Assembly (NCBI GenBank): GCA_030390025.1
Contig: JASTWF010000114.1
Location: 806,001-870,000 of the forward strand
DNA: 64,000 bases
Reading direction: 5' to 3'
Source of the DNA: Squalus acanthias
Lineage: Eukaryota
The position numbers and the translations under genes are program-made. Within the stretch, counting starts at the first letter, position 1. Every line of letters begins with the position of its first letter. The notes beneath the pieces are model-generated. The model saw only the letters and a list, made by a program, of their open reading frames with translations, was not told where the DNA came from and made no database searches. Below are positions 2,453-41,202 of the stretch, in pieces.

Positions 2453-3880
2453 GACTCAGTGGTGTCAATAGACACGCTGATTTGGGCTATTGCCCAATGT
2501 GGAACTACAGTTCCCACGGTGTAGAGCGCGGTGTGGCCAGTGCTCTGCGATGATTGGTTCTCCAGTCAGCCGTATCGGTGTCAGCAGTGACAAAGCTCTT
2601 GGTCCCTGTGCAAGATTGAGAGAGCAGCTCCAGTCACAGCAACAAAGCCCCTTTAATAATTCTAACAGACCAGAGGAATCAGTGATCAGTTCAAGCGCAG
2701 AAACAGGAACAAGCATCTGGGCTTCACCGTAAAGCCACTTGTCCAGGTGAGAACCAATCCCTGCCCGAATTCAATGCCGGCTACTCCAGGGGCCGAGAAT
2801 CCCTCCGGCCGCTCTGTGTGATTTTTAAGGAACAGGGGAATAACTAACTTCACAGTTACACAATTCTGATATTTATTAAACAAAAAAATATTCCTTTGAC
2901 GCTAATATCTCGAGCCAACCCATTTATTAACTATTTAACGCATTTAATTTTACCCACTAGTAACTGACACCAACCAGTTTCAATCTGACTTTTAAAAACA
3001 TGAACCAAACTCAGTGTGGAGAGTTAGGGATTGACTTCAAAGAGGGGAACAGTTCAACATCACAGAGAATCAGAAATAACTGACCCGGCCGCTTAATAAT
3101 TCAACTGGAACAGGGTTTAAAACGGGAACTGCGCGCATCAATCGGACCCGCAGTAAATTAAAGGCAAGGTGTCATTTTATTAATATGGTGCCGAGTTTTA
3201 TTTGCCCTCCTGAGTTTAAAAGTGGGTGACTCAGACTATAATAAAGCAACTTCTCTTTAATCCGGGGCAGGGAGTAAAATGTCGCTTTCTACCGCTCTTT
3301 CTCATTCATCTAATTAGCTATTTACTCCGCCTCAGGAATATTCTCATCAGAAATGTATTTACAGCCTGAAGCCCAAATCATATCTGTCAATTGAAACCCC
3401 AATTTTAAAGGGATTGACAAATCCAGGGTTGTCTTGCTGCTGATTTAGAGAAGCGAACGTCAGTCTATTGTGAAATGTGTATTTTAGGGGGAAAAGGTTA
3501 TTTTAAAATCTGATGCAGTATATCGGAGAGTAACAGCGCGTTATCAGAACGATTCCGGCCGAAGTGCATCAGCTGATCCGTATCTCTACAATCCGCCCCT
3601 CGGATCCCGGACTTTAAAGAAGCAGCGCCCGGTTCAGTCGGACATTTGGACGGTGGGTGTTGTCGCTTCTCCAGTGGAAATCGCTCCAGCGATCCATCTC
3701 CTGTTGGCTCTGCTAATCCATTTAACAGGTGAGACACGGATGGTTTTAGTCACGGGTTTATCCGCAACTAAATCGTTTCAATACCGAGAATCGGGCGGTT
3801 TTATCTCCGTGTTTATTGACGCATTAAAATCCGATTTGCTTAAAGTCTCTGAATGCGTTGATTTTTTTCTTTTATTGAAG

Positions 3881-4230
3881 GTGTCCTGGCGGCTCCCGTC
3901 CTCAATCAGTCCCCAATATCCGATCCTGTATCCGAGGGTCAGACCGCCCGGTTACAGTGTGCGATGCAGAACGGCGCTGTGGGCAGCAAGGATGTGTACT
4001 GGTTCCAACAGCGACCCGGGGAAGCTCCGGTGTGGGTGATAAGACATAACACCGATGGAGCTGTATCCCGAGGCAGCGGTTTCGCAGGCCGTTTTCAACC
4101 TTCCAGAGACGCCTCAGTTAACAGTGGCATTCTGACCATCGGAACCCTGGTGCCCGGTGACTCCGTCTATTACTGTGCTGTGTGGTACTCGGGATACATC
4201 TTCGGACCGGGGACACCCTGAGTATAAAGA
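3881..4230 (+). pseudogene. Joined V-J exon, copy 1
   Basis: Acceptor ttgaag|gt at 3880/3881; conserved C, W, YYC and FGPGT motifs; frameshift after FGPGT. Confidence 0.92.
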
Positions 4231-4419
4231 TTAAGTGACTCTCTCATTCTATCATTCATATTGTTTCAATTATTATTAATTTACAGTCGGTTTCAATCCC
4301 GGGCGCCAGATGCAGGATCTATTTATACACAAAACATGTTAAACTGATCAGAATTTATATTGTTGAAACGCTCGGGCAATAATACTGTGCTGAAATAAAG
4401 TTTGACACCATTTCCTTCT

Positions 4420-4935
4420 CCCATTCAATAGGGGAGATGAAGAGAAGTGTTCTTTTTACTCACCGAGTTGTTAAAAAGAGCTTTTTCCTAAATGGCCGGG
4501 CTCTAATTTTCAATTGATGTCCCCTGGTTCTTGTTGCCCCGAACAAAGGAAATCGATTTTCTGTATCTACCCGAGCGAATCCTTTTGCACATTTTAAGGA
4601 CTTTGAACAGATCACGACTGAAGCTTCTCAGCTCAAGGGAATACAAGCCAAGTTTATGCAACCCGTCCTCGTAAGTTAACCCTCTAAGCCCCGGTATCAT
4701 TCGGATGCAGCAAGAGACAGAGAGAGAGAGAGAGAGTGGGGGGAAAGTGGTGAGCTATACTGTGAAGTTCTGACAGTGGACACTGAATATGTCACTGTGT
4801 TACACTGAGTTATAAATGGAGAAAATTGCAGGGCTGTGGGGAAAGAGCAGGGGAGTGGAACTAATTGGAGAGCTCATTCAAAGAGCCGGCACAGGCACGA
4901 TGGGCCGAATGGCCTCCTTCTGGGCTGTATGATTC
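4420..4935. mobile_element. CR1 3'-end fragments in the J-C intron (both orientations) with a short GA microsatellite
   Basis: Minus-strand peptide MIPGLRGLTYEDGLHKLGLYSLE; CR1 tail gggccgaatggcctccttct at ~4902. Confidence 0.7.
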
Positions 4936-6192
4936 TCTGCTATGCCTTACCTCTTCCCTTAGTGTATGTCGAATTATTTCTATGGTCCAGAGTCGGCACC
5001 GCCCGATTTAATAAAGATTGCCCGGAGCCGGCGGGAGAGCCCCCGGAAGAACCCCGACCCATTTACCGTCATTTGCAAAGTTCAATATTGCTGCTGTTTT
5101 TATTCCTGTGCGTATTGTCCCTCTGGGCTGGAAGAGAGGGCTGGCCCTCTGTCCCAGCACAGAAGTGGTTGGATCGACCCCCTGTCCCCAGTAACACCTT
5201 GCCTAGTCGGGATTTGATTCTTTTGATGGGACCGGTTTTATTCTGAATTCCCTGCTCCGATATTTGAGATGTCTGAACTCGTTTTTCGCAATCTCCCCAC
5301 TGTTTATAGAGCAGAACCGACGCTTTACCATGGAGCGGCGCAGTGACAATTTCTGACCTGCCCCGTGTGAATGAGTGAGTCTGGGCGATGCTTGTTGAAG
5401 GGAACTTTCTCTCCATCTCATTCTTTCGCTGCTGACCCTCTCCCCTCCCCCAGGCTGTGTCTGCTGACTCTCCCTGTCCAGTGTCCCCCCGGGTATATCG
5501 CCGATTCTCCTGGGTTGATCTGTCGGGTCCAGCTATCGCCCAGTGTTGAACGGATCGCTCCGGGACCAGCGAGACTGATCTCATCCCGAGAGAGAAATCA
5601 GTTCCCCCGCGCCGGGAGGAATCCGTACTTGCCTCTGTAGCGAGAATCTTTTACAATCCTTGTTCCCCATTTCACTTGAAATATCGAACAGTGTGGACAA
5701 TCGGTGTTAAGCAGTTCACTGCTCCCTAATTTCACATCTTTAAATTTAACACTGACCACATTTTAAGACAAACAAACGCTTTATTATTTTGAAGTAAAGG
5801 GGAAAACACTAAAAATATCCCAATTTAAAAAGAAAATGCTGGGAGTGCACGGTCGGTCGGTCAGTGTCTGTAACGGGAACAGGCAGGTTAGTGCGGTTCC
5901 GGGGGTGTAACCTGCAGCTGAACAGGTCAGTTACTGATCTTTCCAGCTCACACATGCTGACTGACCTGGTCTGTATTTCCAGCATTTTCTGTTCTAATTT
6001 TGCATGAAAAAAAGAAAGTAGGAATAATTGAAAGAAAGAACGAATGATTTTATTGGAACTCCTGTATTAATCAGTAATTTATTTTAAAGTGAATGTTGTT
6101 CGCGGGTTCTTTGGTATCTTTGATTTCAAATAAGAGCGTCCCACTGCTGACGGATTCCATAAACTAATGAATGTTCTCTCCCCCACAAAAAG

Positions 6193-6521
6193 GCAGCGAG
6201 GATCGAAGCACCTCGGTTCTTCTCCTCCCTCCTTCCTCGGAAGAATTCAGCTCGGGATCGGCCACTCTGTCCTGCCTGGTGAGTCGCTTTAAGCCGGGCT
6301 TGGTGCGGCTCCGCTGGAGCGTGGATGGCCAAGAGACAGACAGCGGGGTGACGTCAGGCGCCGTGTCCCCTGACAGCGATCAAACCTACAGCCTGAGCAG
6401 TTACCTGAGAGTCCCCGCCGCCGCCTGGAACAAGGGCTCCAGCTATTGTTGCAGCGTCAGCCACGGCTCCCTGAGCCCGCCTCTTCTCAAGACCATCAGC
6501 GCCACGTCGTGTTCCGACTGA
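6193..6521 (+). CDS. Ig light chain constant exon (open reading frame; belongs to pseudogene copy 1)
   Basis: SEDRSTSVLLLPPSSEE..ATLSCLVSRFKPG..W..YSLSSYLRVPAAAWNKGSSYCCSVSHGSL..SCSD*: a C1-set domain resembling shark type I light-chain C regions; AG acceptor at 6191-6192. Confidence 0.88.
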
Positions 6522-6874
6522 GGCGGTGCGAGTTGGCAGTGGGGTTTGAATTTTGCTCGTGTTTAATGTAATGAAACAGATCATTCGATGTGTGCAATCC
6601 ACACTTTTTGAAATGTAATCGCTGTAACAATTTCAGTTTTTGGCAAACAATGGGAATGTTAAATAATATCAGAAGTGACTGAAATGATTGTCCAGCGTTG
6701 TGAGATGGAACTTTCTGTACAATTGTCCCCAATATCTTGTGCGAAAAATTCGGTGTGTGTAGAATGGGGACAGATTTCCCTTTGTCTGTGGTCGTATTGT
6801 GATTAAAAACTTGTGTAACACAGCTCTTGATAAACATGAAATGCTGCCACGAGCTTAAAGAGTTCCGTCTTTAC

Positions 6875-8820
6875 TCAGCACTTAAAGAGACATTGAGTGG
6901 ATTTCATAGAATGTACAGAACAAACAGGATATTCAGGCCAACTGGTCTATGCTGGTGTTTATGCTCCACATGAGCCTCCCCCCACGCTATTTCATCTCAC
7001 TCCATCAGCATATCCTTCTATTCCTTTCTATCTCAGGTACTTATCGAGCTTCCCATAAAATGCACCTATGCTATTCACCTCAGATATTCGATATGGCGGC
7101 AAATTCCACATTTTCACCCACTCTGGGTAAATAATTTTATCCCGAATTCCCTATTGGATTTCTTAATTTTAAGGTTATTCCCTCTTGTTCTGGACGTTCT
7201 CTCCCCCCGCCCCCACCAGAAGTGTAGTTTCGCTGTATCTACCCGATCAATCCCTTACAGAATCCTAGAAACCACAATCAAATCACTCTTTAACATTTTA
7301 TATTCCAGGGAATATAAACTTAGTTTATGTAATCTCTCCTCATAATTTGACCCTTGGATCCCTGGTAACATTCAGGTGAATCAGCGCTGAACTCCTTCCA
7401 ATATATCCTTTCTGAGATGCGGTGCCCAGAACCTGTACACAGTGTTCCAGAAAGTGGATTATTTAAGTAGGGTGGGAAAGATAAACCAGGTCACTACCAG
7501 CATATGTCAGTTTACTGCCAGTTGTGGGGAAAATAATAGAAACTGTCATTAAGGATAGAGTGACTGAACACTTTACCAAATATGAGCTGGTCAGAGGGGG
7601 CCTCTTCTGCCGCCATATTTAAGCTCTCAGCACTTAAAGGGACATTGAGTGGATTAAATCGAATTTACAGCACCAACAGTCCATTCAGCCAAACTAGTCT
7701 AAATCGGTGTTTATGCTCCACAGGAGCCTCTTCACACACTATTTCATCTCACTCCATCAACATATCCTTCTATTCCTTTCTACCTCACGTACTTATCTAG
7801 CTTTCCCTTAAATACATCTATCCTGTTCGACTCAACCAATCCAAATGGAAGTGAGATCCACATTCTCACCACTCTCTGGGTATGAAAGGTTTCTCCTAAA
7901 TTCCCAATTCGATTTCTTAATTTTAAGGTTATGCCCCATTGTTCTGGACGACCCCCACCAGTAGAGTAATGTCTCTCCATCTACCCTATTCCATTCAAAA
8001 TCCTAAAAACCTCAATCAAATCACCCCTGAACATTCTATATTACAGGGATTACAAGCTTAGTTTTAAACCTTGGTTCCCTGGTAACATTCTGGTGATTCT
8101 CCGCTGAAATCCTTCCAATATATCCGTTCTGAGATGCGGTGCCCAGAATCTGTACACAGTGCTCCAGATACTGGATTATTTAAGTAGGGTTGGAGATATA
8201 AACCAGGTCACTACAGGCCTGTCAGTTCATCGACAGTGGGGAAGCTTCTAAAATCTGTCATTAAGGATAGAGGGACTGACAACTGAAGCAAATATGAACT
8301 GATCAGAGGGGGCCAGCATGGTTTTGTTAAGGTTAACTCATTTCTGACTAATGTAGTTGCAATTCTTGAGGAAGTCACTAATCAGATTGACAAAGGAGTG
8401 TCCATAGATGTTAGCTAAATGGACTCCCAAAAGGCATTCAAAAAGGTACCACACAAAGGATTATTGGACAAAATCAGATCGCATGGAATTGCGGGTAGCC
8501 TTTTGATCCGGGTTGGAGTTTGGTTGGGAGGTAGGAGATAGAGAGTGGGGATCATGTGTTGGTACTCAGATTGTCAGGATGTGACAAGTGCTGTTCCGCA
8601 GGGATCTGATCTGGGGCCACAATCTTTCCACCATATGTATCATTGACTTGGATGAAGGAATAAGAGTTGTATATCCAAGTTTGCAGCTGTTAAGTTAGGA
8701 GGCACAGTAACTTTTGCTGATGGAAGCCGGAAGTTAAAAGCGGATATACACAGGTTGTGAGTGGAGTGAAATATGACTGATGAAGTTCAACGTGGGGGAG
8801 TGTGAGGTAATCCACTTTGG
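6875..8820. mobile_element. Decayed CR1 mosaic with a ~740-bp direct tandem duplication (6875-7602 / 7625-8313)
   Basis: ctcagcacttaaag.gacattgagtggatt and cagagggggcc mark both copies; RT remnants continue to ~8820. Confidence 0.7.
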
Positions 8821-9629
8821 ATCTACTCCTTTTCCTGTGCTCCTTGATCAGGAAGTGAGGATTTTGAATATGGTTAATCATGCATGCGAAATGTCCCGAG
8901 CATAATAGGCAGTGTCGCCAATGAGCTTGTGCAAGGGTGGTGGGGGGAGAAGGGGGCGAGTTGCCTGCATGACCACTAACGCTTTACATGTTAACCTGCG
9001 TGCTTACGTAATAACCGCACGTACAATGAACGTGATGAAGTACTTTCACCATGCTTACCTTGCATAATTAAATAGATGTGTTTGTGAGTACAATTGAGGT
9101 CATTCTCATAGCACTGGATGTGCTAAGTTTCTATAAGTGTCCCGATAAATAAAGATTATTAGCATCTCCATCCCTTCAATCCATCAGCCTGTATAAAAGT
9201 GGACGTAAGGATTATTCTGACACCACGCTCCCGTGGCTGTTTGATTTCCAAATCTGAAGCTTCTGTAGATCGGTGCTGAGACCACATGCGTCACTTTTGG
9301 CGACCAAGCTTCGAAAGTGAAATTGATCCATTGTAGGCCATTCATTAAAGATCGCCATGCATCATTCCTGGATTAGATTACCAAAGAGATTGCTGAAAGG
9401 AAGTCTAGTGCCTTTGCTGAATCGATTAATGAAAGGAGACACCAACCTGGTCGGAAATGCACAGATAATGAACGTATGATCAGGGCCTTTGGGGTGGGCT
9501 GTGAACGAGGAACTGGACGATAGCTGATGAATTACACGCGGGGCAATAAAAGAGGAAAATATAAATATTTTACACACAGTAGAGTAGATCGGTGCAATAC
9601 ACTCGCTGTGGAGACACTTCGAGTGCTGT

Positions 9630-11530
9630 TAGTCTTTAGGTTGGAGTCGGGTAGAACTCGGGACAGACCCAGCCCGAATGTTCCTGGTGATAGCGGGCGA
9701 GATCGGTGGCGGCTCGGGTAGGAAAGTTGTTATTTTTGGGAGCGGGTCAGGATCCCGCTGTCATCTCGCCCCCAACCGCTCTTCCCCCAGGTGCGTCTGT
9801 CATCGCGGGTCCGACCCGACCGGCAGCGGCGGGGGACACAATTGAGATGATTATCAGCTAGATTGCAGGCAGTTAAGAGCCCTTTTTCACTTATTTTTAA
9901 ATTCCCCTGCATAGCCACGGGTTTCACACAGCTCGGGAACGACGTCAGTCAACCTGAGGTGGGTGTTCAGTGATCATTGCTCCAGCTGATTACTTGACAG
10001 CATCAAATGTACAGTAACAGCTCCCACATGACAGATGATCACTTTCCTCAGGCAGAAGCTGTTGTTCAGCCCATTTCCAGCACAGATTCTGCAGGCTGTA
10101 AGTGTTTCCAGCAAAATCTCCATCCAGTGTTACCTCAGTGGAAGAAATCTCTCACCATTGACAGAATCCTTCTGTCATCTTTACTTCACCTGCCATCTAT
10201 TCCATCAACATGCGTGCCATTTCTTCTGTCTCACATTGGTCCGCTGATTGGACCCCGCCGGGCCCCAACACCAGCAGCAGCAACAACAACACCAACCTTC
10301 TCCACAATCACCTGATGTAGCACAGGACACAGGGCATAAGCACCCGACCACATTGCTGACCAGTCGGCCCAGGGTGGCCTCATTATGGCCACATTTAATT
10401 AACTTCACGCTGTACACCCATATGGCCGCCACATGATGCGCCAGGTTGGCACCACCCCAGAGTAACACCATTAAGCATCCCTGCAATGACCCAGCCATTC
10501 CTTTCATACTCATCACTATTGCAGGTGGATACTTTTATGTCTCGCCATTCACTGCAACTCAGTAAGACAATTCCAAAGGTGCTATTGAATTTGCCCAAGA
10601 CTGGAAAGTGTTGCAAATAAAGATTTTTATGTTTGACTCCACATTAACAGAAACTTTACATAAACATTGGATAAACACGCAAGTGGCTACACTTGTGAGT
10701 TGTTGGTATGATTGCACTAGGATGTGTGTGAATGTGAGGGGTGGCTAGTGAGAGGGGGATCTGATAATATAGATAGAGAGAGAGGGATGGGTGGAGGTTC
10801 AAGGTATATTGGTGTGAGTAAGGATGTGCATGAGTAGGGTAGGGAAGGCAGAGTGATGGGGTTGTGATGAGAGGCACAGCAGGCTGCGGTGGAGTGTGGC
10901 TTTGTACTAATGTTTTCAGTTCTAATGAGATCATTGAAACGTTTGCGGCAATGCACCCAGGACCACCGGACTACATCCCTGCTTGTGACCTCCTCTGCAA
11001 TCTGCAACTAGGCTGTCTTGTTCTCCTGCGGCGGCCTGCTCTGCCTATTTGAAGGGAAGAGGACCTCACTGCGTGCTCTGACTCCATCCACATATGGAGG
11101 GAGTCATCGGAGAACCTGGGCGCAGGCCGCTGCCTCTAAGCAATCATGGTCTGTGGTTGCAGCACTCGAATGCTGTAGTACCCTGTTAGATTAAAATTCA
11201 ACTGTAATGTGGCCATGGTCGCTTTAAAGATCCCGGCTGAAAACGCGTCATGAATGACGTGGCCGGGCCCGCTCCATTTCATTGGTCCGGATAACGGGCT
11301 CGCCGGGCTTAATAGGCCTCATTATGATAAATTCATTTTCAATAGCGGGATCGAGCCAACAGCGGGGTCTCGACCCGCCATGGCCACCGCCCGCACAGGA
11401 TCCGCCCAGATAAGCAAAGATCCTGCCTTGACTCCAAAGCGAAAGGTCAATCTGGGTGGTGCTAAATGACACTTAAAGTGTTCGATTCCCCCGCAAATTT
11501 CTGAACTTTTTAAATTGTAACTGTTGGGAA
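9630..11530. mobile_element. PIF/Harbinger-like DNA transposon remnant with a Myb/SANT-like fragment
   Basis: Minus-strand peptide IAEEVTSRDVVRWSWVHCRKRFNDLIR (~10915-11007) fits the trihelix Myb/SANT motif; GC-rich ends; related copies at 27400-29230. Confidence 0.55.
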
Positions 11531-12355
11531 CCTGCGTGGATCGCAAGCTGTCCCAAGCCCTTCGCTAAACCTCTCCGCCGCTCTCACCGCCTTTGAGACC
11601 CTCCTTAAAACCTACCTCTTTGACCAAGCTTACGATCACCTGTCCAAATATCAGCGTAAGTGGCTCGGGGAAAAATGTTGTCCAATTAACGCTTTTGTGA
11701 AACGCCTTGGGGACATCTTACGACATTAAAGGCTCTGCAGAAATTCAGGTTGTTGTTGGTGCTGTGTAAACTACATATCGTGCTCTTAGATAACTTTTTG
11801 ACCTAGCAATTCATTCCTGAACCCCAATGGGATCTGAGCAACGTACTGGGGGCTTGGATGGGAATAAGATGGGCGGGTGAGGCTGCGGGGGGTGGGGGTT
11901 TAAATATATAAATGGGGAAAGCTCACAACAACCCACTGCTTCAGCTCCTGCCGCCATATTTAAGTTCTCAGGCGGGATGTCGGACAAGCAGCGTGACAAT
12001 TCAGAGAGAGTGGGGGGTTCGAAAGAGTTTTTGGTGAGGTAGAGCTGACTCAGTGCTGTCAATAGAACCGCTGATCCTGGCTATTGCCCAATGTGGAACT
12101 ACAGTTCCCAAGGTTCAGTGCGCGGTGTGGCCAGCGCTCTGCAATAATTGGTAATCCAGTCAGCCGTGTCAGTGTCAGCAGTGACAACGCTCTTGGTCCC
12201 TGTGCAAGGTTGAGAGAGCAGCTCCAGTCACACCACCAATGATCCTTTAATAATTCTAACAGACCAGAGGAAACAGTGATCAGTTGAAGCGTAGAAACAG
12301 AACCAAGCACCTGGGCTTCACCGAAAAGCCACTTGTCCAGGTGAGAACCAATCCC

Positions 12356-13252
12356 AGGAAACCATAGACCAGTTAGCCTAACATCTGTTGTTGGGAAAAT
12401 GCTGGAGTCCTTCATTGAGGAAGCATTAGCAGGGCATTTGGAAAATCATAATGCAATCAAGCAGAGTCAGCCTGGTTTATGAAAGGGAAATCATGTTTTA
12501 CAAATTTGCTGGATTTCTTTGAGGATGTAACGAGCAGGGTGGACAAAGGTGAACCAGTGGATGTGGTGTATTTGGATTTACAGAAGGCATTCGATAAGGT
12601 GCCATATAAAAGGTTACTGCATAAGATAAGAGCTCACGGAATTGGGGGTAATATATTAGCATGGATAGAGAATTGGCTATCTAACAAAAAGCAGAGACTC
12701 GGGATAAATGGGTAATTTTCCGGTTGGCAAACGGTAACTAGTGGGGTGCCACAGGGATCGGTGCTGGGGCCTCAACTATTTACAATCTACATTAATGACT
12801 TGGGTGAAGGGACCGAGTGTAATGTAGCCAAATTTGCGTATAATATAAAGATGGGTGGGAAATCAATTTGTGCAGAGGACTCAAAGAATCTTCAAAGGGA
12901 TATAGAAAGTTTCAGTGAGTGGGCAAACATTTGGCAGATGGATTATAACGTGGGAATGTGCGAGGTTATACACTTTGGCAGGAAAAATAAAAAAACAAAT
13001 TATTATTTAAACGGAGAGCGATTACAAAATGCTACAGTTCAGAGGGACCTGGGGGTCCTTGTGCATGAAACACAAAAATTTAGCAGGCAGGTACAGCAAA
13101 TAATCAAAAAGGCAAATGGAATATTGGCATTTATTTCAAGGGGGTTGGAGCATAATAGCAGAGAAGCCCTGCTACAACTGTATAGTATATTGATGAGACA
13201 ACAGCTTGAGTGCTGCATGCAGTTTTGGTCTCCTTATTTAAGGAAGGATATA
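12356..13252 (+). mobile_element. CR1 RT fragment shared with duplication copy 3 (23926-24820, inverted)
   Basis: KGKSCFTNLLDFFEDVT..YLDLQKAFDKVP and PQGSVLGP motifs. Confidence 0.9.
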
Positions 13253-16200
13253 GAGTCATAGAGATATACAGCGCTGAAAGAGGTCCTTCGGCAGATCGTG
13301 TCCACGCCGGCTGTCAAGCCCAGTCTATTCTAATCCCATTTCCAGCAGTTGGTCCGTAGCCTTGTATGCTATGGCGTTTCATGTGCTCATCTAAATGCTT
13401 CCTGAATGTTGTGAGGGTTCCTGCCTCTACCACCCTTTCAGGCAGTGAGTTCAAGTATCCAAACACCCTCTGGGTGAAATAGTTTCTCCTCAAATCCCCA
13501 CTAAAAATCCTCCCCTTTATCTTGAAACTATGCCCCCTGGTTGTTGAACCCTCTGCTAAGGGGAAAAGTTCCTTTCTATCTACCCTATCTATGTCCCTCA
13601 TAATTTTGTACACCTGAATCCGGTCCCCACTCAAGCTTCTCTGCTCTAAGGAAAACAAAACCACCCTGTACAGTCTCTCTCCATAGCTGAAGAGCTCAAG
13701 CCCAGGTAACAGCCTGGTGAATCTCCTCTGCACCCTCTCCAATGCAATCACATCCTTCCTATAGTGTGGCGACCAGAACTGCACACAGTATTCCAGCTGT
13801 GGCCTAAGTAGCGTTATGTACAGCTCCATCATAACATCCCTGCTTTTATATTCTATGCCTCGGCTAGTGAAGGCAAGCGTCCTATTGGCCTTTTTAACCA
13901 CCTTATCTACCTGTCCTGCTGCCGTCAGCGATCTGTGTACATGCACATGCTCTGATCCTCTGTCCTTCCTAGGGTCCTACCATTCATTGTGCATTCCCTT
14001 GCCTTGTTAGTCCTTCCAAAATGCATCACCTCACACTTTTATTGGTTAAATTCCATTTGCCACTGTTCTGCCCATCTAATCAACCAATCTATATCGTCCT
14101 GTAGCCTGAGGCTTCCCTCCTCGCTATTTACCACTCCACCAATTTTCGTGTCATCTGCGAACTTACTGCTCATACTTCCTACCTTCATATCTAAATCAAT
14201 AATGTGCACTACAAACAGCAAAGGACCAAGCAGCGAGCCCTGTGGAATTCCACTGGACACAGGCTTCCAGTCAGAAAAGCAACCTTCGACCATCACGCTC
14301 TGCCTACTGCCACTAAGCCAATTTTGGATCCAATGCGCCAAATTGCCCTGGATCCCACGGGGTCTTACCTTCTCGACCAATCTCCCATGCGGGACTTTAT
14401 CAAAAGCCTTACTGAATTCCATGTAGACTACATCAACTGCACTTCCATCATCCGCACACCTAGTCACCCCCTCGAAAAATTCAATCAAAGTGGTTAGACA
14501 TGACATCTCCTGACAAAGCCGAGCTGATTATTCTTGACTAATCCTTGCCTCTCCAAGTGGAGACTAATTTTGTCCCTCAAAATTTTTTCCAATAATTTCC
14601 CTACCACTGATGTTAGTCTCACTGGCCTGTAATTCCCTGGTTTATCCCTACTACCTTTCTTGAATAATGGAACTACATTAGCTATTCTCCAGTCCTCTGG
14701 CACCTCCCCTGTGGCCAGAGAAGTTCTGAAAATTTGGTCAGAACCCCTGCAATCTCCACCCTTGCCTCAACAGCAGACTGGGCACCCAACAGCCCTCTGG
14801 ACTCAACATTGAGTTCAACAATTTCAGATAATAACCTTGGCCCCTTTCACATATATATATGTTTTAATTTTATTTTTTCATCCACCCATTTGTTGGGTCT
14901 TTTATTTCCCTCCCACCAGCTGGCAGCTGTCCTTCATTCTGCCAGCGCAGTTCACACTTCATCTAGCCTCTACCTGTCACATTGCCACCTCCTCTTGCCT
15001 TGATTATCTATTTATGTCTCTTGATCTCTCCTGCTTTCTATCGCACTACTGACCTCGCCTTTTGTTCTTCCATCCCCTCCCCCTTTTCCCAGCATTATTC
15101 TTGCTTTAAATCTATTTCAGTTCCTGCTTTTTTCCAGTTCTGACTAAAGGTCTTCGACCTGAAACGTTAACTCTGTATCTCTCGTCACGGATGCTTCCTG
15201 GCCTGCTGAGTTTTTACAGCGTTTTCTCTTGTTATTTCAGCCCGGAATACATGCCGTCTGCGCCTGTGGATTGATCCACTTTTAAGCCCGCTATAACCGC
15301 TAGTAGCTCCTCCTTCTCAATACTAATTTGTTCAAGTATAACCCCCTGCCTGATTTCTAAGCCTACATCGTCCTGCTCCATAGTGAACACAGATGCAAAA
15401 TATTCATTTAAAACCCCACCTACATCATCCGGGTCTACACACAGATTGCCACTTTGGTCCCTAATGGGCCCTACTCTTTCCCTGGTTATCCTCTTCCTCT
15501 TAATATACTTATAAAATACTTTGGGATTCTCCTTTATTTTGCCCGGCAATGGTTTTTCATGCCCCCTCTTCGCTCTCTTAATCTCTTTTTAAGTACCCCC
15601 TGCATTTTCTATACTCCTCTAGGGCTTCCACAGTTTTTAGTCCTTTGTATCTGCCAAATGCCTGCCTTTTTTTCCTAATCCATTCTTGTATATCCCTTCA
15701 CATCCAGGGTTCCCTGGGCTTGTTGGTCCCACCCTTGACTTTTACGGGAACATGTTTGCGTTGTTCTCTCTCTATTTCCTTTCTGAAAGACTCCCAATGT
15801 TTCCTTCAAGTATCTGATCCCAGTCCACTTTGACCAGATCCTGCCTTATCATATTAAAATCGGCATTCCACAATTTGGAAACTTTATTTCCGGTCCACCT
15901 TTGTCCTTTTCCATGACTACCTTAAATCTCACCGAATTATGGTCATTGTCACCAAAATGCTCTCCTACTGCCACTTCTACCACTTGCCGGGCTACATTCC
16001 CCAGAATTAGGTCCAGTACCGCCCCCTCTCTTGTAGGACTTTCTACATGCTGGCGCAAAAAGCTCTCCTAGATGCACTTTAAGAATTCCGCACCCTCTAA
16101 GCCTTCCACACTCTGACTATCCTAGTTAATGTTGGGGAAGTTGAAATCCCCTACTGTTATTACCCTATTATTTCTATACTTCTCTGAGATTTGCCTCCAT

Positions 16201-17280
16201 ATCTGTCCCTCTATCTCCCCCTGACTGTTTCGGGGCCTATAGTACAATCCCAGCAAGGATTTTGGACCCTTTCCGGTACAGGTGCAACCCGTCCGACTTG
16301 TACAGGTCCCACCTTCCCCAGAAGCAGACCCAGTGATCAAGGAAACTGAAGCCATCCCTCCTGCACCAAGTCTTTAGACAGGCATTCATCTGCTCTCTCC
16401 TCCTATTCCTGTACTCACTAGCACGTGGCACCGGGAGTTATCCAGCGATTACAACCTTTGAAGTCCTGCTTTATAATCTGCTACCTAGCTCCCTAATTAC
16501 TTGTTGCAGGACCTGATCCCTCTTTCTACTCATGTCGTTGGTACCAATGTGAACCAGGGCCTCTGACTGTTCACCCTCCCCCTTCAGAATGCCCTGCAGC
16601 CGTTCAGTGACTTCCTTGACCCTGGCACGAGGGAGGCAACATGACATCCTGGAGTCATGTCTGCTGCCACAGAAACGTCTATCTGTTCCCCTTATGATAG
16701 AATCCCTTATCACTATTGCTCTCCTACTCTTTTTCCTCCCCACCTGTGCAGCTGAATCACTCGTAGTGCCACGGACATGGCTCTTGCTGCATTCCCCTGA
16801 GAAACCATCTCCCCCAGTAGTATCCAACATGGAAAATCTTTCGGAGAGGGAGATGGACCCAGGGGACTCCTGCACTACCTTCCCAGTTATTTTACTCTGT
16901 CTGGCGGTCATCAATTTCGTGTCTGCCTGTGCACTCTTTACCTGCGGTGTGACCACCTCGTTAAACGCGTAATCCATGAAGATCTTAGCTTTGCGGATAC
17001 TCCACCGTGACTCCAGCAGCAGCTGCAGCTCTGAAATGCGGATTTCGAGTAGCTGCAGCTGTAGACACTTCCTGCACATGTGTTCGCCCTGGGCACCGAA
17101 AGTGTCCCTGACTTCCCACATAGCACAGGAGGAGCACTCCACGGTGCCGAGCTGCCCTGCCATGACCTACCCTTAAATTATTCCCTTTACTTCCTTTAAA
17201 TTAAAGAATATTAAACACACTAGGGACCTTACTTCCCTTTAAACACTACTTACTCTAAACTGGAGACCTTACTTTACTCA
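13253..17280 (-). mobile_element. Near full-length decayed CR1 LINE (ORF1 17163..~16250, internal deletion, ORF2 fragments, 3' tail)
   Basis: ORF1 esterase; GDFNF endonuclease motif; KFADDTK RT motif; (ctatgact)-type tail at ~13253. Confidence 0.9.
14771..15240 (+). mobile_element. Penelope-like (Neptune-type) 3' fragment nested in CR1, with a degenerate hammerhead
   Basis: GIY-YIG C-terminal peptide RLGTQQPSGLNIEFNNFR*; ctgactaa-aggtc-ttc-gacct-gaaacgtt at ~15140-15168. Confidence 0.7.
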
Positions 17281-18080
17281 GAGTGGGGAGTTAGGGATTG
17301 ACTCCAAAAAGGGGAAGTGTTCAAAATCACAGAGCCCCGGAAACAACTGACCCCGCCGCTTAATTATTGAACTGGAACAGGGTTTAAAACGGGAACTGCG
17401 CGCATTAATCGGACCCGCAGTAAATTAAAGGCAAGGTGACATTTGATTAATATTGTGCCGAGTTTTATTTATCCTCCTGAGTTTTAAAGGAGGTGACTCT
17501 GACTACAATAGAACAAATTCTCTTTATTCCTGTGGCAGGGTGTAAAATGCTGCTTTCTTCCCCTCTTTCTCATTCAACTAATTCGCTCCTTACTCCGCCT
17601 CAGGTATTTTCTTATCAGAAATGTATTTACAGACTGAAGCCCAAATCATATTTGTCAATTGCAATAACACTTTTAAAGGATTGACAATTCCAGGGTTGTC
17701 TTGCTGCTAATTTAGAGAAGCGAACGTCAGTCTATTATGAAAGATGCATTTTAGTGGTAAAGTTTATTTTAAAATCTGATGAATTATATCAGAGAATAAC
17801 AGCGCGTTATCAGAACGATTCCGGCCGAAGTGCATCAGCTGATCCGTATCTCTACAATCCGTCCCTCAATTTTCTGGAGTAGAAGTCAGACTAAATATTC
17901 ATTAAACGCAAAAATCTTCGAAATCTTGGAATCTTCCCTTAACAGAATCTCCATTTGGAGATTATACATTTTTATAAACTAAAGGTTTAAGATTTTAATA
18001 ATTTAATTAGGCACAAGTAGGTTTAAAAAAATACCCGACTTAAAAATCTGCCTCCTTCCTTTTCCTGGCTCCACCCAGCC

Positions 18081-18101
18081 ATTTGCATACCGGGTTATAA
18101 A
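18081..18101 (+). promoter_or_regulatory. Ig promoter: octamer ATTTGCAT (18081-18088) + TATAAA (18096-18101)
   Basis: Canonical light-chain octamer orientation, 140 bp upstream of the leader ATG at 18221. Confidence 0.9.
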
Positions 18102-18220
18102 TAGACCCGGAGTCGCGGGTATGCAGCCACTGTAACCGGACCGGGTCCCGGAGTTTACAGGAACAGCGCACGGCTCAATCGGAAATATGAGCGGTGGCTG
18201 TTGGCGCTTCTCCTCAGGAA

Positions 18221-20958
18221 ATGGCTCCAGCGATGCATCTCCTGTGGGCTCTGCTGATCCATTTAACAGGTGAGAGACGGATGGTTTTAGTCACGGGTTT
18301 ATTCGCAAATAAATCGGTTCAATACCGAGAATCAAGCGGTTTTCCCTCCGTGTTTATTGACGCATAAACGTCGTAGTTTCTACAAGTCTCTGAATGGGTT
18401 GATTTTTTTCCTTGTATTGAAGGTGTCTTGGCGTTTCCCGTCCTCAATCAGTCCCCAATATCCTATCCTGTCTCCGCGGGTCAGACCGCCCGGTTAAAGT
18501 GTGCGATGCAGAACGGGGCTGTGGGCAGGAAGAATGTGAACTGATTACGAAAGCGACCCGGTGAACCTCCGGTGTGGGTGCTAAGCTATGAAACAGACAA
18601 TGATATATACCGAGGCACCGGTTTCACAGAACGTTTTCAACCTTCCAGAGACTCCTACGGTAACAGTTACATTCTGACTATCGGATCCTTGTTGCCCGGT
18701 CACTCCGCCGTCGATTACTGTGCTGTGTGGGACTCGGAAATCATCTTCGGACCGGGGACCATCCTGAGTATAAAGAGTAAGTGACTCTCTCATTCTATCA
18801 AAAACGTAGTTTCAATTATTAAAACTTTGCAGTCGCTTTCAATCCCTGTCGCCAGAGAAATCTCCATTCAGTGAATTTTGATGTTTGAACTATTTATACC
18901 CAAAAAAGGTTAAGCTGATCAGAATTGGAATTGTTGCAGCGCCTCGGGGAATAATACTGCGCTGAAATGATGTTTGACACCATGTCCTGCTCCCATTCAA
19001 TAGGGGAGATGAGGAGAAGTGTTCTTTTTACGCAGCGAATTGATGTGATCTGGAATGCACTGCCTGAAAGGGCGGTGGAACCAGATTCAATATTAACTGT
19101 CAAAAGCGAAATTGGACAAATACTTGAAAAGGATAAATGCATGGCCACGGGGAAAGAGCAGGAGCAGTGGGAATAATTGGATAGCTTTATTCAAAGATCC
19201 GGCACAAGCACGATGGGCCGAATGCCCTCAGCGGAGCACTGATTGATAAAATATTGACAGAGGAACAGGAGGAGTCCATTCAACCACTCGAGCATGTGTG
19301 AAAAATTGCTTCCCTCCTCAATGGCCGGGCTCTAATTTTACGTTGATGTCCCCTGATTCTTGATTCCCCGCCCACAGGGAATCGTTTCTCTGTGTTTTCC
19401 CGAGCGAATCCTTTTCCACATTTTAAACACTTCGAACAGATCACCTCTGAATCTTCTAAACTTAAGGGAATAGAAGCAATGTTTATGCAACCCGTCCCCA
19501 TAAGTTAACCCTCTAAGCCCCGGTATCTTTCGGCTGCGGCAAGAGATAGAGAGAGATAGAGGGGAAAGTTATGAGCTACACTGTGAAGTTCTGACATTGG
19601 ACACTGATTGCCCGACGCTGGCGGGAGTGACCCCGGGGGAATCCCAACCCATTTACCGTCATTTGCAAATTTCAATGTTGCTGCTGGTTTTATTCCCGTG
19701 GCGTATTGTCTCCCTGACCGCAGCCGTCGGGTGTCCAGCTCTGGGCTGGGAGAGAGAGAGGACCCTCCCGAGACCCGCTGTCCCAGCACAGAACCGGGTG
19801 CATCGACTCCCTGTCGCCAGCAACACCGGGAATAGTCGGGATTGTATTCGTTTAACGGGAATGGTTTTATGCTGAATTTCCTGTTCCGATAGTTAATCTG
19901 TCAGAGCTCATTATTCGCAACCTCCCCGCTGTTTCTAGAGCAGAACCGGCGCTTTATCATGGAGCGGCGCAGTGACAATTACTGACCAGCCCCGTGTGTG
20001 TGAGTGAGACTGGGTGATGCTTGTTGAAGGGAATTTTCTCTCCATCTCATTCGCTCCCTGCTCACCCTCTCCCATCCCCCAGGCTGTGTCTGCTGACTCT
20101 CCCTGTCCAGTGTCCCCCGGGGATAGCGCTGAAAATCCTGGATTGATCCCGCTACCGCCCAGTGTTGAACGGATCGCTCCGGGACCAGCGAGACTGACCT
20201 GATCCCGAGAGAGAAATCAGTTCACCCGCGCGGGGAGGAATCCTTACTTGCCTCTGTAGCGGGAGTCTTTTACAATCCTTGTTCCCCCTTTCACTAGAAA
20301 TATCGAACAGTGCGGACTCCCGGTGTAAAGCGGGTTACAGCTCTCCAATTCTACCTCTTTAAAGATAACACTGAACGCCTTTTAAGACAATCATACGCTT
20401 TATTATACTTAAGTGAACAGGAAAATACTGAAACTATTGCAATTTAAAAATAAACAGAAAATGCTGGGAATGCACGGTCGGGCGATCAGTGTCTGTAACG
20501 CCAACAGGCAGGTTAGTGCGGTTCCGGGGGTGTAACCTGCATCTGAACTAGTCAGTTGCTGATCTATCCGCCTCACACATGCTGACTGACCTGGACTGTA
20601 TTTCCAGCATTTTCTGCTTTTATTTTGCAGGAAAGAACGAAAGAAGGAAAGATAGAAAGAAAGCGTAAAGAAAGAAAAATGTTATTGGAACTCTAGTATT
20701 AAATAGTAACTTATTTTTAAACGAATTTTGTTCGGGGGTTCTTTGGCGTCTTTGATAACCGATCAGAGCATCCCACTGCTGACGGATTCCATCACAGAAT
20801 GGATTTTCTCTGCCCCCACACACAGGCAGTGAAGATCCAAGCCCCTCGGTTCTTCTCCTCTCTCCTCGGAAGAAATCTGCTCGGGATCGGCAGCTCTCTC
20901 CTGCCTGGTCATTCGCTTTAAGCCGGGCTTGGTGCGGCTCCGCTGGAGCGTCGATGGC
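18221..20958 (+). pseudogene. Ig light chain (sigma-cart) copy 2: leader 18221-18269, joined VJ 18423-18776, truncated C 20826-20958
   Basis: Leader MAPAMHLLWALLIHLT|G and intact splice sites. The conserved FR2 Trp is TGA (18542-18544). C has a 4-nt deletion (~20860) and is cut off at 20958. Confidence 0.93.
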
Positions 20959-21446
20959 TCTTTATATTCAGGGTGGACCCGGTCCGAAGCTGTTTCTCGG
21001 TCCCCACACAACACAGTAATCGACCGTGGAGTCACCGGGCACCACGGTTTTGATCGTCAGAATGTAACTGTTACCGGAGGCGTCTCTGGAAGGTTGAAAA
21101 CGGTTTCTGAAGCCGGAGCTTCGGTGTATGGTGCCATCGTTACTCTGCCAGTGCAACCACGCCGGAGGTTCACCGGGTCGCTGTCGGTACCAGTACACAT
21201 CGTAGCGGTTCACATTCTCGTTCTTCATCGCACACTCTAACCGGGCGGTCTGACCCACGGAGACAGGCTCGGATATTGGGGGCTGACTGAGATCACGAGC
21301 CGTCAAGACACCTTCAATAAAAGCAAAAAATCAACCCATTCAGAGACTTAGAGCAAATAGGACGTTAATGCGTCAATATACACGGAGAAAATACCGCCCG
21401 ATTCTCGGTATATAACCGATTTAGTTGCGGATAAACCCGTGACATT
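20959..21446 (-). pseudogene. Ig light chain (sigma-cart) copy 3: joined VJ exon 21311-20959; leader deleted after the ATG; no C exon
   Basis: QPPISEPVSVGQTARLECAMKN..WYRQRPG..VDYCVVWGPRNSFGPG; 1-nt deletion in J; gaaatg is fused directly to intronic tcacggg at ~21443. Confidence 0.92.
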
Positions 21447-21538
21447 TCCTCCGGAGAAGAGCCGACAGCCACCGTCCAAATTTCAGACTGGTTACAGTGT
21501 CTGCAAATCCGAGACTCAGGATCTATTTATTATCCGGA

Positions 21539-21546
21539 ATGCAAAT
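21539..21546 (-). promoter_or_regulatory. Octamer of copy 3 promoter (TATA degraded to AATAAAT)
   Basis: atgcaaat on the + strand = ATTTGCAT on the - strand, at the position homologous to 18081. Confidence 0.85.
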
Positions 21547-22600: not shown

Positions 22601-24820
22601 CATAAGAAGATAAGAACATAAGAAATAGGAGCAGGAATAGGCCACTTGGCCCCTCGAGCCTGCTCTGCTATTCAATAAGATCATGGCTGATCTTGGGCTC
22701 AAAGCCACATCCCCGCCCGCTCCCCATAACCCTTCACTCCCTTATCTGAGAGACGAGATTCCTCCTCATCTCAGTTCTAAAAGGGCGACTCTTTATTCTA
22801 AAACTGTGCCCCCGAGTTCTAGACTTCCACACGAGGGGAAACATCCTCTCTAAATCTACCTTGTCGAGACCCCTCAGTATCTTATATGTTTCAATAAAAT
22901 CACCTCTCATTCTTCTAAATGCCAATGAGTATAGGCGCAGCCTGCTCAACCTTTCCTCATAAGTCAATCCCCTCATCTCTGGAATTAACGTCGTGGATCG
23001 TCTCTGAACTGCCTCCAATGCAAGTATATCCTTCCTTAGTGAACGCAGAAGCAAGCGTCATCTGCATACTGTAATTCGACGGCAGAGGATTGGACGACCT
23101 TGGATCTGGACTGGAGGCGACGGAGCATTGCTGCAAGGAAGATCGAGAAGAGCGTTGGTACGATGACACAGCCTTGCTTGACTCCGGTTCATAATTGAAT
23201 TGGGTCTATGGTGGAACCGTTGGTCAGGGTCACGGCTTGCAGGTTGTCGTGAAGCAGGCGGAGGATGGTGAAAAACTTTTGAGGGCTGCTGAATTTGAGG
23301 ATGACACTCCATAATCCATCACGGTTGACAGTGTTGAAGGCCTTTGTGAGGTCAAAGAAGGCCATGTCACGGGGTTGGTGCTGTTCCCTGCATTTCTCTT
23401 GTAATTGACGTGCAGTGAAGATCATGTCCATTGTGCCACTTAGTGGGCGGAATCCGCATTGCGAATCTGGGAGGAGCTCTTCGGACAATGGGAGAAGGCG
23501 ATTAAGGAGGATTCTTGCAATGATTCCCAAAACAAGCGCTCTACTCGGAGCTCCGGCACGGCAAGAGAGCCACAGGTGGGCAGAGGAAACACTTCAAGGA
23601 CACCTTCGAAGCCTCCTTGAAAAATTGTAACATCCCCACCGACACCTGGGGATCCCTGGCCCAAGACCACACAAAATGGAGGAGAAACATCCGGGAAGGC
23701 GCCGAACACCTGGAGTCTCTTCGCCGGGAGCAAGCGGAAGCCAAGCGCAGGCAACGCAAGCAGCGTACGTCAACAGAAGCACCCCACACATCCGCTCCTT
23801 CAAACCGTCTGCCCCACCTGTGACAGAGACTGTAGGTCCCGCATTCGACTCATCAGTCACCTGCAAACTCATTTTTAATGTGGAAGCAAGTCATCCTCGG
23901 TACCGAGGGACTGCCTAAGAAGATCCTTCCTTAAATAAGGAGAGCAAAACTGCAAGCAGCACTATAGGTGTGCTCTCACTAATAACCTGTACAGCTGTAG
24001 CAGGGCTTCCCTGCTTTTATACTCCAACCCCCTTGAAATAAAAGCCAATATTCCATTCGCCTTTTTGATTACTTGGTGTACCTGCATGCTAACATTTTGT
24101 GTTTCATGAACAAGGACCCCCAGGTCCCTCAGAACTGTAGCATTTTGGAATCTCTCTCCGTTTAAATAATAATTTGTTTTTTTTATTTTCCACGCCAAAG
24201 TGTATAACCTCGCACTTTACCACGTTGTAATCAATCTGCCAAATGTTTGCCCACTCAGTTAACCTTTCTATATCCCTTTGAAGATTGTTTGAGTCCTCTG
24301 CACAACTTGCTTTCCCACCCATCTTTGTATCATCCGCAAACTTGGCTAAATTACACTCGATCCCTTTATTCTAGTCTTTAATGTAGATTGTAAATAGTTG
24401 AGGCCCCAGTACCGATCCCTGTGGCACTCCACTAGTTACCGTTTACCAACCGGAAATTGACCCATTTATCCCGACTCTCTGCTTTCTGTTAGTTAGCCAA
24501 TTCTCAATCCATGCTAATATATTATCCCCAATTCCGTGAGCTCTTATCTTATGCAGTAACCTTTTATGTGGCACCTTATCGAATGCCTTCTGGAAATCCA
24601 AATACAACACATCCACTGGTTCATCTTTGTCCACTCTGCTCGTTACATCCTCAAACAACTGCAACAAATTTGTAAAACATGATTTCCCTTTCAAAAAACC
24701 ATGCTGAATCTGCTAGATTGAATTATGATTTTCCAAATGCCCTGCTACTGCTTCCTTAATGAAGGACTCCAGCATTTTCCCAACGACAGATGTTAGGCTA
24801 ACTGGTCTATGATTTCCTGG
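22601..24820 (-). mobile_element. CR1 3' portion, interrupted by an RTE
   Basis: RT motifs and a (taagaaca)n tail at ~22602-22625; resumes after the RTE at 23923. Confidence 0.88.
23039..23922 (+). mobile_element. RTE-clade LINE with 5' inversion; 11-bp TSD atccttcctta (23028-23038 / 23923-23933)
   Basis: The - strand 23041-23530 encodes RT (SQCGFRP..DMIFTARQLQEKCREQ..FFDLTKAF). The + strand 23530-23922 encodes the C-terminus (KHFKDTFEASLKNCNI..) and an (aag)n tail. Confidence 0.85.
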
Positions 24821-25124
24821 GATTGGTTCTCACCTGGACAAGGGGCTTTTCGGTGAAGCCCAGGTGCTTGGTTCTGTTTCTGCTCTTGAACTGATCACTG
24901 ATTCCTCTGGTCTGTTAAAATTATTAAAGAGGCTTTGGAGCTGTGACTGGAGCTGCTCTCTCAAACTTCCACAGGGACCAAGAGCTTTGTCACTGCTGAC
25001 ACTGACACGGCTGACTGGAGAACCAATCAATCCAGAGCACTGGCCACACCACGCACTGCACCTTGGAAGCTGTAGTTCCACATTGGGCAACACATAAGAT
25101 CAGCGTGTCTATTGAAACCACTGT

Positions 25125-34815: not shown

Positions 34816-34874
34816 AAGTATTTCACCAAAACTCTCTGAGCAAGGGCATGATCAATTAGTTCATCAGCAAAATT

Positions 34875-40484: not shown

Positions 40485-41202
40485 ATTGGGCCATAAATTC
40501 GGCTTTCCGACTTCCTGCGGGTGTAAGCATAGCGCGCGTACTTACCTACTGCACCTGCAGTTGTGCTTTTGGCCCATGAGCACTTCTGCTCCTGGGCCTC
40601 CTCCAGCTGCCGGCGCGCACTGCTTGCGTATCCCAGGGCGCAGTTCGTTAGAAGCGTCCCCTGGGATCACGTGGGCCATGGAGCGCCAATCCGAGCCGGG
40701 CATTTTCATTCATAGATTTGACAGGAAGACCTGTCAAATCTATGAATAGAGATCGGCCCCAAAACCACACTTAAACTTCAAATAACTTAAAAAAAACAAA
40801 AATTTAAATTTTTGAAAAAATTAATTATACTTTTTAAATGTGCTAAAAATAAACTTACCTTTCTTTAAAGTATCTACAAAAGATAAACCTGTTGAAAAAA
40901 TGTTTAAATTGTAACTAATTAACCGCTTAACTTGTTAAAAACAGGCCTTGCGCCTCCTTTTTAAAGTTGCAGCTTCTCCATACTTACCCTCCCGGAGAAA
41001 CCTGAAAAAAAAACGATGTTCGCTGCGTGCGCGCAGCCTCTCCCGCGCACGTGTGCAACTTCTGAACCCCTCCCTTCAGGGGAACGGAAGTTCCGGTTTC
41101 CCGCGCATGCGCGTTGCATGCAGGAAACCGGCAATTCAGATGGCTTTACGGGTGAGTACACAGTGCGTACTCACCCGACAAAAGCCGAAATTCTGGCCCA
41201 AT
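40485..41202. mobile_element. Non-autonomous DNA transposon (MITE) with ~22-bp terminal inverted repeats
   Basis: attgggccataaattcggcttt ... aaagccgaaattctggcccaat; AT-rich centre with GC-rich subterminal arms. Confidence 0.75.

What the first reader, a model, noticed from the sequence alone, without database searches (positions are those of the whole stretch)
3680..21546. Array of three germline-joined VJ sigma-cart (type I/NS5) light-chain clusters, all with a 7-residue CDR3
Seen: V and J are already fused in all three copies, with no RSS or intervening DNA, while the leader and J-C introns remain (so these are not processed cDNAs). The junctions are AVWYSGYI, AVWDSEII and VVWGPRNS, all the same length. 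Known: cartilaginous fish have cluster-type Ig loci, some joined in the germline, attributed to RAG activity in germ cells. Inference: one ancestral germline joining event was amplified by segmental duplication into a hard-wired, innate-like antibody family.
Basis: partly seen in the sequence, partly recalled or inferred. Interest (0 to 1): 0.75.

Follow-up and report, generated by a model that had tools for sequence, protein, structure and literature searches.

The report
Three dead pre-joined shark antibody genes
These are three broken copies of a shark antibody light-chain gene whose V and J parts are already fused in the genome, an arrangement long known in sharks and rays; they likely descend from one old fusion whose working copies lie elsewhere in the genome.

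Summary
The core observation holds: three sigma-2 (sigma-cart/type I/NS5) light-chain V-J exons, each fused with no RSS, with introns kept. Two details are wrong. CDR3 is 8 residues (24 nt), not 7. Copy 1 has lost its octamer/TATA, both ATGs and the J splice donor, and has a J frameshift. Copy 2 has a stop at the conserved Trp and a frameshifted, truncated C exon. Copy 3 is inverted, has lost leader and C exon, and is frameshifted. Frameworks show no purifying selection. The closest relatives are spiny dogfish chains, 10 of 10 with an 8-residue CDR3, mostly AVWDSGYI. Public DNA contigs carry the joined junction, and spliced RNA-type contigs come from intact paralogues, not from copy 1. One join followed by duplication is plausible: copies 2 and 3 share a LINE insertion and the junctions align. 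Equal length alone does not prove it, because rays also have 8-residue junctions. Joined, fixed-length, CDR-diversified type I families with pseudogenes were described in skate in 1995. Verdict: ordinary decayed members of a known kind, in a lineage where my searches found no description of the joined state.

The parts
3680..3728 (+). Copy 1 leader exon; both start codons read ATC (3680-3682, 3692-3694) where copy 2 has ATG. About 275 nt upstream, holding the octamer and TATA of copies 2 and 3, are missing at 3599/3600
   Evidence: in DNA run X2 most depth has G at 3682 and 3694 while about one copy's depth (36.6 of 347.6) keeps C
3881..4230 (+). Copy 1 joined V-J exon; CDR3 4177-4200 AVWYSGYI; 3-nt deletion in FR3; 1-nt deletion in J giving TGA at 4219-4221; J donor reads TT at 4231-4232
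   Evidence: Pfam V-set
6193..6521 (+). Copy 1 C exon, open frame, 92.5% identical to a Squalus chain over 107 aa
   Evidence: Pfam C1-set
11972..17270 (.). Copy 2 upstream flank (11972-12355, matches 2378-2761) and LINE-type insertion starting at 12356, shared with copy 3 and absent from copy 1
18081..18269 (+). Copy 2 octamer (18081-18088), TATA-like element and intact leader exon (ATG 18221)
18423..18776 (+). Copy 2 joined V-J exon; TGA at 18542-18544 in place of the conserved FR2 Trp; YYC reads DYC; CDR3 18722-18745 AVWDSEII; J frame and donor intact
20826..20958 (+). Copy 2 C exon remnant, with a 4-nt deletion, cut off after 133 nt where it meets the inverted J of copy 3 (one shared base, 20958)
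   Evidence: a 4-nt deletion at the matching place is in one X2 contig
20959..21311 (-). Copy 3 joined V-J exon, inverted; YYC reads DYC; CDR3 21012-20989 VVWGPRNS; 1-nt deletion in J; no J-C intron or C exon
   Evidence: Pfam V-set
21312..21546 (-). Copy 3 5' region: octamer (21546-21539) kept; a 67-nt deletion removes the leader coding sequence and its splice donor
22603..25202 (-). Copy 3 upstream: LINE-type insertion (24818-22603) at the same site as in copy 2, then the flank that matches 2378-2761

Best explanation
These are three broken, V-J-fused sigma-2 (type I/NS5) light-chain genes of a shark close to the spiny dogfish, which likely descend by segmental duplication from one V-J join made long ago in a germ cell, presumably by RAG. 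Shown: the fused 24-nt junctions, kept introns, lesions in every copy, duplicated flanks, a LINE insertion shared by copies 2 and 3, and a deletion that fused copies 2 and 3 tail to tail. Inferred: one ancestral junction close to AVWDSGYI; duplication of the whole leader-VJ-C unit with its flank; CDR diversification or exchange while copies still worked; then decay (birth-and-death evolution). Intact paralogues elsewhere likely make the fixed-length light chain and diversify it through germline CDR differences and somatic mutation. The RAG step comes from the literature (PMC2193156) and is not shown here.
For: Lesions in 3 of 3 copies. Framework pN is at or above pS in all three pairs (0.145/0.080, 0.175/0.132, 0.191/0.090), and framework divergence (13-17%) is no lower than that of the flanks (11-13%). 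Flanks are duplicated with the genes, and copies 2 and 3 share an insertion point and 894 nt of LINE that differ at 79 sites; copy 1 has the empty site. The junctions align without gaps, and CDR3 differences (4, 8, 8 of 24 nt) are no greater than those of CDR1 and CDR2 together. The best single-chain hit is a Squalus acanthias light chain at 81%; 10 of 10 members of its cluster have an 8-residue CDR3, 6 of them AVWDSGYI. Window copies group with the Squalus rows in V trees (SH-aLRT 83 with 92 rows; 93 with 35 of those rows). In DNA run X2 a 522-nt contig with 2 other letters and 2 gaps bridges the junction (4136-4659) at depth 39.5, like intron contigs (39.1, 45.7); a diverged 293-nt contig bridges it too. 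RNA-type runs show the leader intron and J-C intron spliced out, with G at both start codons, the FR3 codon present and an in-frame J unlike all three copies.
Against: Flank differences are star-like (20/24/19 and 26/33/32 private changes), so they do not themselves pair copies 2 and 3. Copies 2 and 3 have the most different CDRs (32 of 69 nt) although they share the LINE and the Tyr-to-Asp change, which needs gene conversion or faster change in copy 3. Eight-residue junctions also occur in rays, including beside 10-residue sisters, so length alone cannot prove one event. No genome was held, so paralogues were not collected. The joint and loose-end tables were cut (57 and 1291 rows not shown), so split paralogues are not excluded. 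The tissue of the DNA runs is unknown.
Confidence: 0.8

Rival explanations
1. Each copy, or each sub-lineage, was joined separately in the germline after duplication; the same length recurs because the V and J ends favour one product.
For: Nurse shark kappa shows at least five independent germline joins (PMC2193156, passages). Sigma-2 junctions of 6, 8 and 10 residues in different lineages often end in GYI, and 8 recurs in rays. Copy 3 differs at 8 of 24 junction bases.
Against: Gap-free alignment of the three junctions; copy 3 is as divergent in CDR1 and CDR2 as in CDR3; 10 of 10 Squalus chains share the length; no leftover split partner in the window.
Confidence: 0.09
2. The join is older than the shark-ray split: the WDSGYI junction of dogfish and rays is one inherited event, and the frameworks were later homogenised within each lineage.
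For: Mobula proteins P0010 and P0059 read AAWDSGYI, and most stingray and devil-ray chains retrieved have 8 residues. Sigma-2 is also joined in skate, gar, turtles and coelacanth. Copy 2's CDR2 YETDNDI equals that of skate type I chains.
Against: An AU test rejects one clade of window + Squalus + 8-residue ray V regions (13 rows against 22, p = 0.0066, quick tree, group chosen after seeing an earlier tree). C regions split sharks from batoids at SH-aLRT 99. Within rays, 8- and 10-residue chains are sisters (P0070/P0033, 95). Gene conversion could weaken all three points.
Confidence: 0.07
3. One reading: the three copies are themselves a working hard-wired, innate-like antibody family.
For: CDRs differ more than frameworks in all pairs (Fisher p 0.023, 0.0007, 1e-6). 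Joined nurse shark sigma-2 pairs with neonatal IgM1gj (reviews).
Against: Every copy has at least two independent disabling lesions. Copy 1's ATC alleles appear in X2, and an X5 contig covers 4204-4659 without a gap, so with the J deletion. The listed RNA-type contigs carry the intact states.
Confidence: 0.02
4. The joined state is a somatic rearrangement from lymphocyte DNA or an assembly artefact.
For: The source tissue is unknown, and the best runs hold only about half of the sampled words.
Against: Three neighbouring clusters all joined at one length and since decayed by 11-17%; a junction-bridging DNA contig at the depth of single-locus intron contigs.
Confidence: 0.02

Closest known systems
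Little skate type I (sigma-2) germline-joined light-chain family (Anderson et al. 1995, PMC2192082; abstract, passages and parts 7-8 of the text read)
   Same: Same isotype; V-J joined with introns kept; fixed CDR3 length; differences concentrated in CDRs; pseudogenes in the family (7 of 89); germline gene conversion and RAG in germ cells proposed
   Different: Skate CDR3 is two residues longer (10 from Cys to Phe); the skate gene examined lacks the octamer, which copies 2 and 3 keep; here 3 of 3 copies are dead; the window genes group with Squalus, not with batoids
Spiny dogfish light chains AES93000-AES93010 (presumably cDNAs, source paper not held)
   Same: 81% V and 92.5% C identity; same 8-residue CDR3; copy 1 resembles AVWDSGYI and copy 2 resembles AVWESGII
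   Different: Those are open reading frames; their genomic state was not seen
Nurse shark NS5 (four loci: two split, one joined, one pseudogene; from reviews PMC5192425, PMC4279169 and PMC2435157, passages)
   Same: Same isotype; a joined gene and a pseudogene occur
   Different: Small family with rearranging members. The 6-residue EVWGYI chains of whale, zebra and bamboo shark suggest a different join in carpet sharks (inference; nurse shark sequence not retrieved)
Nurse shark NS4 (kappa) germline-joined genes (Lee et al. 2000, PMC2193156; abstract and passages)
   Same: Model for RAG-type joining in germ cells; joined pseudogenes occur
   Different: Other isotype; several independent joins with split relatives at hand for comparison

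Membership tests
Sigma-2 (sigma-cart/type I/NS5) light chain | Closest sequence similarity to named type I chains | tested here: met
   All 37 hits are cartilaginous-fish chains; skate 'type I' P0013 gives 64% V and 73% C, against 44% and 41% for a bat lambda chain. Shark kappa, lambda and sigma references were not retrieved.
Sigma-2 (sigma-cart/type I/NS5) light chain | CDR1 of 8 and CDR2 of 7 residues (PMC5985310, passage) | tested here: met
   Copy 2 NGAVGRKN / YETDNDI; copies 1 and 3 align without gaps in both CDRs
Sigma-2 (sigma-cart/type I/NS5) light chain | Placement in a tree with all isotypes | tested here: inconclusive
   Trees nest the copies among type I-like chains but hold no kappa, lambda or sigma rows; three outgroup rows were dropped when parsing failed
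Cartilaginous-fish V-J-C minicluster | One leader, V, J and C per unit | tested here: met
   Copy 1 complete in layout; copy 2 with truncated C; copy 3 has lost C by deletion
Germline-joined Ig gene | V and J contiguous, no RSS, introns kept | tested here: met
Germline-joined Ig gene | Joined state present in non-lymphoid DNA | tested here: inconclusive
   DNA contigs bridge the junction at intron-like depth, but the tissue is not on record
Germline-joined Ig gene | RAG signature (trimming, P or N bases) against the split ancestor | not testable with these tools
   No DNA of a split sigma-2 V and J was available (papers not held)
Functional Ig light-chain gene | Start codon, open V-J frame, splice sites, complete C exon | tested here: not met
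   Fails in 3 of 3 copies
Innate-like neonatal antibody (IgM1gj partner) | Early-life expression and fixed heavy-chain partner | not testable with these tools
   No staged expression or pairing data

The most novel reading that the evidence does not exclude
The WDSGYI junction is one germline join older than the shark-ray split, kept in dogfish-line sharks and in rays and lost in horn and carpet sharks. In the dogfish line it has taken over the whole sigma-2 isotype, and dead copies like these serve as CDR donors by gene conversion. A milder version, that dogfish-line sharks independently fixed an all-joined sigma-2 family and converged with rays on the same junction, is more likely (about 0.4) and less striking.
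Probability: 0.07. Interest if true: 0.6.

Novelty: new member of a known kind. Interest (0 to 1): 0.22.

Why it matters
Little, for these three loci: they are decayed copies of a gene type known since 1995. The residual value is comparative. They extend germline-joined sigma-2 genes to a dogfish-like shark, for which six searches of the open library listed no paper that describes the joined state; the dogfish repertoire paper itself was not held and may already say so. The recurrence of one 8-residue junction in dogfish and rays gives a concrete test of whether germline joins recur by mechanism or selection, or are inherited.

Tried and rejected
No whole genome is held, so no genome-wide paralogue census was made. 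PDB search gave only generic antibody V domains among the 60 rows shown. The near-length protein search found nothing. Contig depth is several-fold higher over exons than over introns, which hints at many paralogues, but the tool states depth is no copy number, so no count is claimed. Four papers were not held: the nurse shark NS5 junction paper, the dogfish repertoire paper, the four-isotype paper and a horn shark genomic paper; they may bear on novelty and on the split V and J ends. No supplements were read. Earlier scan findings: none by sequence or words; the 8 shown of 65 by place concern retroviral envelopes and do not bear on this. The careful tree searches did not finish; all trees are quick ones. 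Rejected: processed-pseudogene origin (introns and flanks kept); RAG as cause of the copy 2/copy 3 fusion (the only CAC-like motif is 6 nt off the break, read); positive selection as sole cause of the CDR excess (synonymous differences in CDR2 are as high as replacements, on few sites).

Full report
Observation. The window holds three Ig light-chain V-J exons: copy 1 at 3881-4230 (+), copy 2 at 18423-18776 (+) and copy 3 at 21311-20959 (-). tblastn with six query proteins found no other Ig segment in the 64 kb. In each copy the second Cys codon and the J Phe codon are 24 nt apart: AVWYSGYI, AVWDSEII and VVWGPRNS. That is 8 residues, not 7. No RSS lies in a junction. The window has no exact RSS, one 12-spacer match with up to 2 mismatches, at 41159 (6 of 100 shuffles give one), and no 23-spacer match with up to 3. 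Introns and duplicated flanks rule out processed cDNA copies.

All three copies are broken. Copy 1 lacks about 275 nt that hold the octamer and TATA in the other copies. It reads ATC at both start codons, has lost a codon in FR3, has a 1-nt J deletion that gives TGA at 4219, and has TT for the J donor; only its C exon (6193-6521) is open. Copy 2 has TGA in place of the conserved FR2 Trp (18542) and DYC for YYC. Its C exon has a 4-nt deletion and ends after 133 nt. Copy 3 is inverted, has lost 67 nt with the leader and its donor, has DYC and a 1-nt J deletion, and has no C exon. A deletion fused its J end to copy 2's C remnant over one shared base at 20958. Framework pN is at or above pS in all three pairs, and framework divergence (13-17%) is no lower than flank divergence (11-13%), as expected for long-dead genes. 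CDRs differ more (25-46%), but synonymous sites in CDR2 differ as much as replacement sites, on few sites. That suggests exchange of old CDR blocks as much as selection.

Isotype. All 37 proteins found with copy 1's V (560 candidates scored) are cartilaginous-fish chains. The best single chain is from Squalus acanthias (81%), and a skate chain named 'type I' gives 65%. Copy 1's C is 92.5% identical to a Squalus C, 81% to horn shark and 71% to skate, against 41% to a bat lambda. CDR1 and CDR2 have the 8 and 7 residues given for sigma-2 (PMC5985310, passage). In quick V trees the copies group with the Squalus rows (SH-aLRT 83 with 92 rows; 93 with 35 of them). The trees held no other isotype, so the isotype call rests on identity and CDR lengths. 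The animal is probably a dogfish-like shark (inference).

Germline state and working paralogues. I laid 4 of the 21 listed runs on copy 1; all are contigs. In DNA-type run X2, a 522-nt contig (2 other letters, 2 gaps) bridges V, junction, J and intron at depth 39.5, close to intron-only contigs (39.1, 45.7). A diverged 293-nt contig also bridges the junction. At both start codons about one copy's depth keeps the window's C (36.6 of 347.6) and the rest has G. A 4-nt C-exon deletion like copy 2's appears in one contig. In X5, from another sample and study, a 456-nt contig covers 4204-4659 without a gap, although the J deletion lies near its end. Either run could be related to the assembly's source. 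The RNA-type runs X19 and X20 show the leader intron (3726 to 3879) and the J-C intron (4214 to 6193) skipped. Their contigs have G at both start codons, the FR3 codon present, and an in-frame J unlike any of the three copies. So intact, transcribed paralogues exist elsewhere. The joint and loose-end tables were cut (57 and 1291 rows not shown), so split paralogues are not excluded, and tissue is unknown.

One join or several. For one join: the junctions align without gaps, and their differences (4, 8 and 8 of 24 nt) are within the range of the other CDRs. All 10 members of the Squalus cluster have 8 residues: AVWDSGYI six times, and VVWDSGYI, TVWDSGYI, AVWESGII and AVWESGVI once each. A 90% cluster may favour like sequences. 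Copies 2 and 3 share a LINE-type insertion at one site that is empty in copy 1, and both have DYC. Against: flank changes are star-like, and copies 2 and 3 have the most different CDRs. Eight-residue junctions are also common in rays: Mobula 10 of 13 rows, Hemitrygon 14 of 19, Hypanus 3 of 7, with one unparsed row in each. Skates have 10 (Leucoraja 4 of 4, Amblyraja 2 of 2), and three carpet sharks each have one 6-residue EVWGYI. Most of these are automatic gene models whose DNA I did not see. Two Mobula proteins read AAWDSGYI. An AU test rejects one clade of window, Squalus and 8-residue ray V regions (13 rows against 22, p = 0.0066; quick tree, group chosen after an earlier tree), and a ray 8-residue chain is sister to a 10-residue one. 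The length has therefore probably arisen more than once. One point is unexplained. Gene models of apparently split genes read SAGY(I)HS, where HS would be the translated heptamer (inference). GYI may thus be the V end, in which case the 8-residue form lacks two internal codons rather than a trimmed end.

Mechanism. Most likely a split sigma-2 cluster was joined once in a germ cell of a dogfish-line ancestor, presumably by RAG. That step is taken from PMC2193156 (abstract and passages) and is not shown here. The joined unit then duplicated with its flanks, copies diverged or exchanged CDR blocks, and these three decayed, the last two being fused by a deletion. Intact copies elsewhere would give light chains without junctional diversity.

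Comparison with what is known. Anderson et al. 1995 (PMC2192082; abstract, passages, parts 7-8 of 10) describe at least 89 skate type I genes. All are joined, with one CDR3 length, CDR-focused changes, 7 pseudogenes, and proposed germline RAG activity and gene conversion. Reviews (PMC5192425, PMC4279169; passages) give horn shark sigma-2 as split and nurse shark as two split, one joined and one pseudogene, the joined chain pairing with neonatal IgM1gj. Sigma-2 is also joined in gar, turtle and coelacanth. Passages of PMC2435157 and PMC12227049 added the NS5 layout and background only. Six library searches listed no paper describing joined sigma-2 genes in dogfish-like sharks; I saw most listed papers only as listings, and the dogfish repertoire paper was not held.

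Verdict. A real feature, correctly recognised as germline-joined sigma-2 genes, but pseudogenes of a known kind and not a working antibody array. New member of a known kind; interest 0.22.

Noticed in passing
window 41159-41186 (+): Near-perfect 12-spacer RSS match (one nonamer mismatch) with no Ig segment nearby; it sits inside a short palindrome (41149-41177). 6 of 100 shuffles give such a match, so probably chance.
   Followed up: partly
window about 37780-40436 (+) and about 44300-44570 (+): Rhodopsin-family GPCR gene remnant (Pfam 7tm_1 for 39864-40433) broken by a stop at about 39806 and a frameshift; a second short remnant of its 3' end lies near 44.3-44.6 kb (read).
   Followed up: partly
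window 18588-18608 (+), copy 2 CDR2: Copy 2's CDR2 YETDNDI is identical to that of skate type I chains P0049, P0052 and P0053, which suggests very old CDR variants or convergence.
   Followed up: no
proteins P0001, P0011, P0019, P0023, P0026 versus P0029, P0072, P0080, P0002, P0010: Apparently split genes end in SAGY(I) before a translated heptamer, and chains of 6, 8 and 10 residues all end in GYI, as if shorter junctions lost internal codons.
   Followed up: partly
window 34821-36184, 41325-41713, 43833-44360, 57221-57639, 1255-1557: Tandem arrays with units of about 67, 30, 24, 43 and 73 nt among many decayed LINE fragments.
   Followed up: no
window 9676-11977 versus 29224-26986: Further homologous blocks (71-74% identity) upstream of copies 2 and 3; these may be older parts of the duplicated unit or dispersed repeats.
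   Followed up: no
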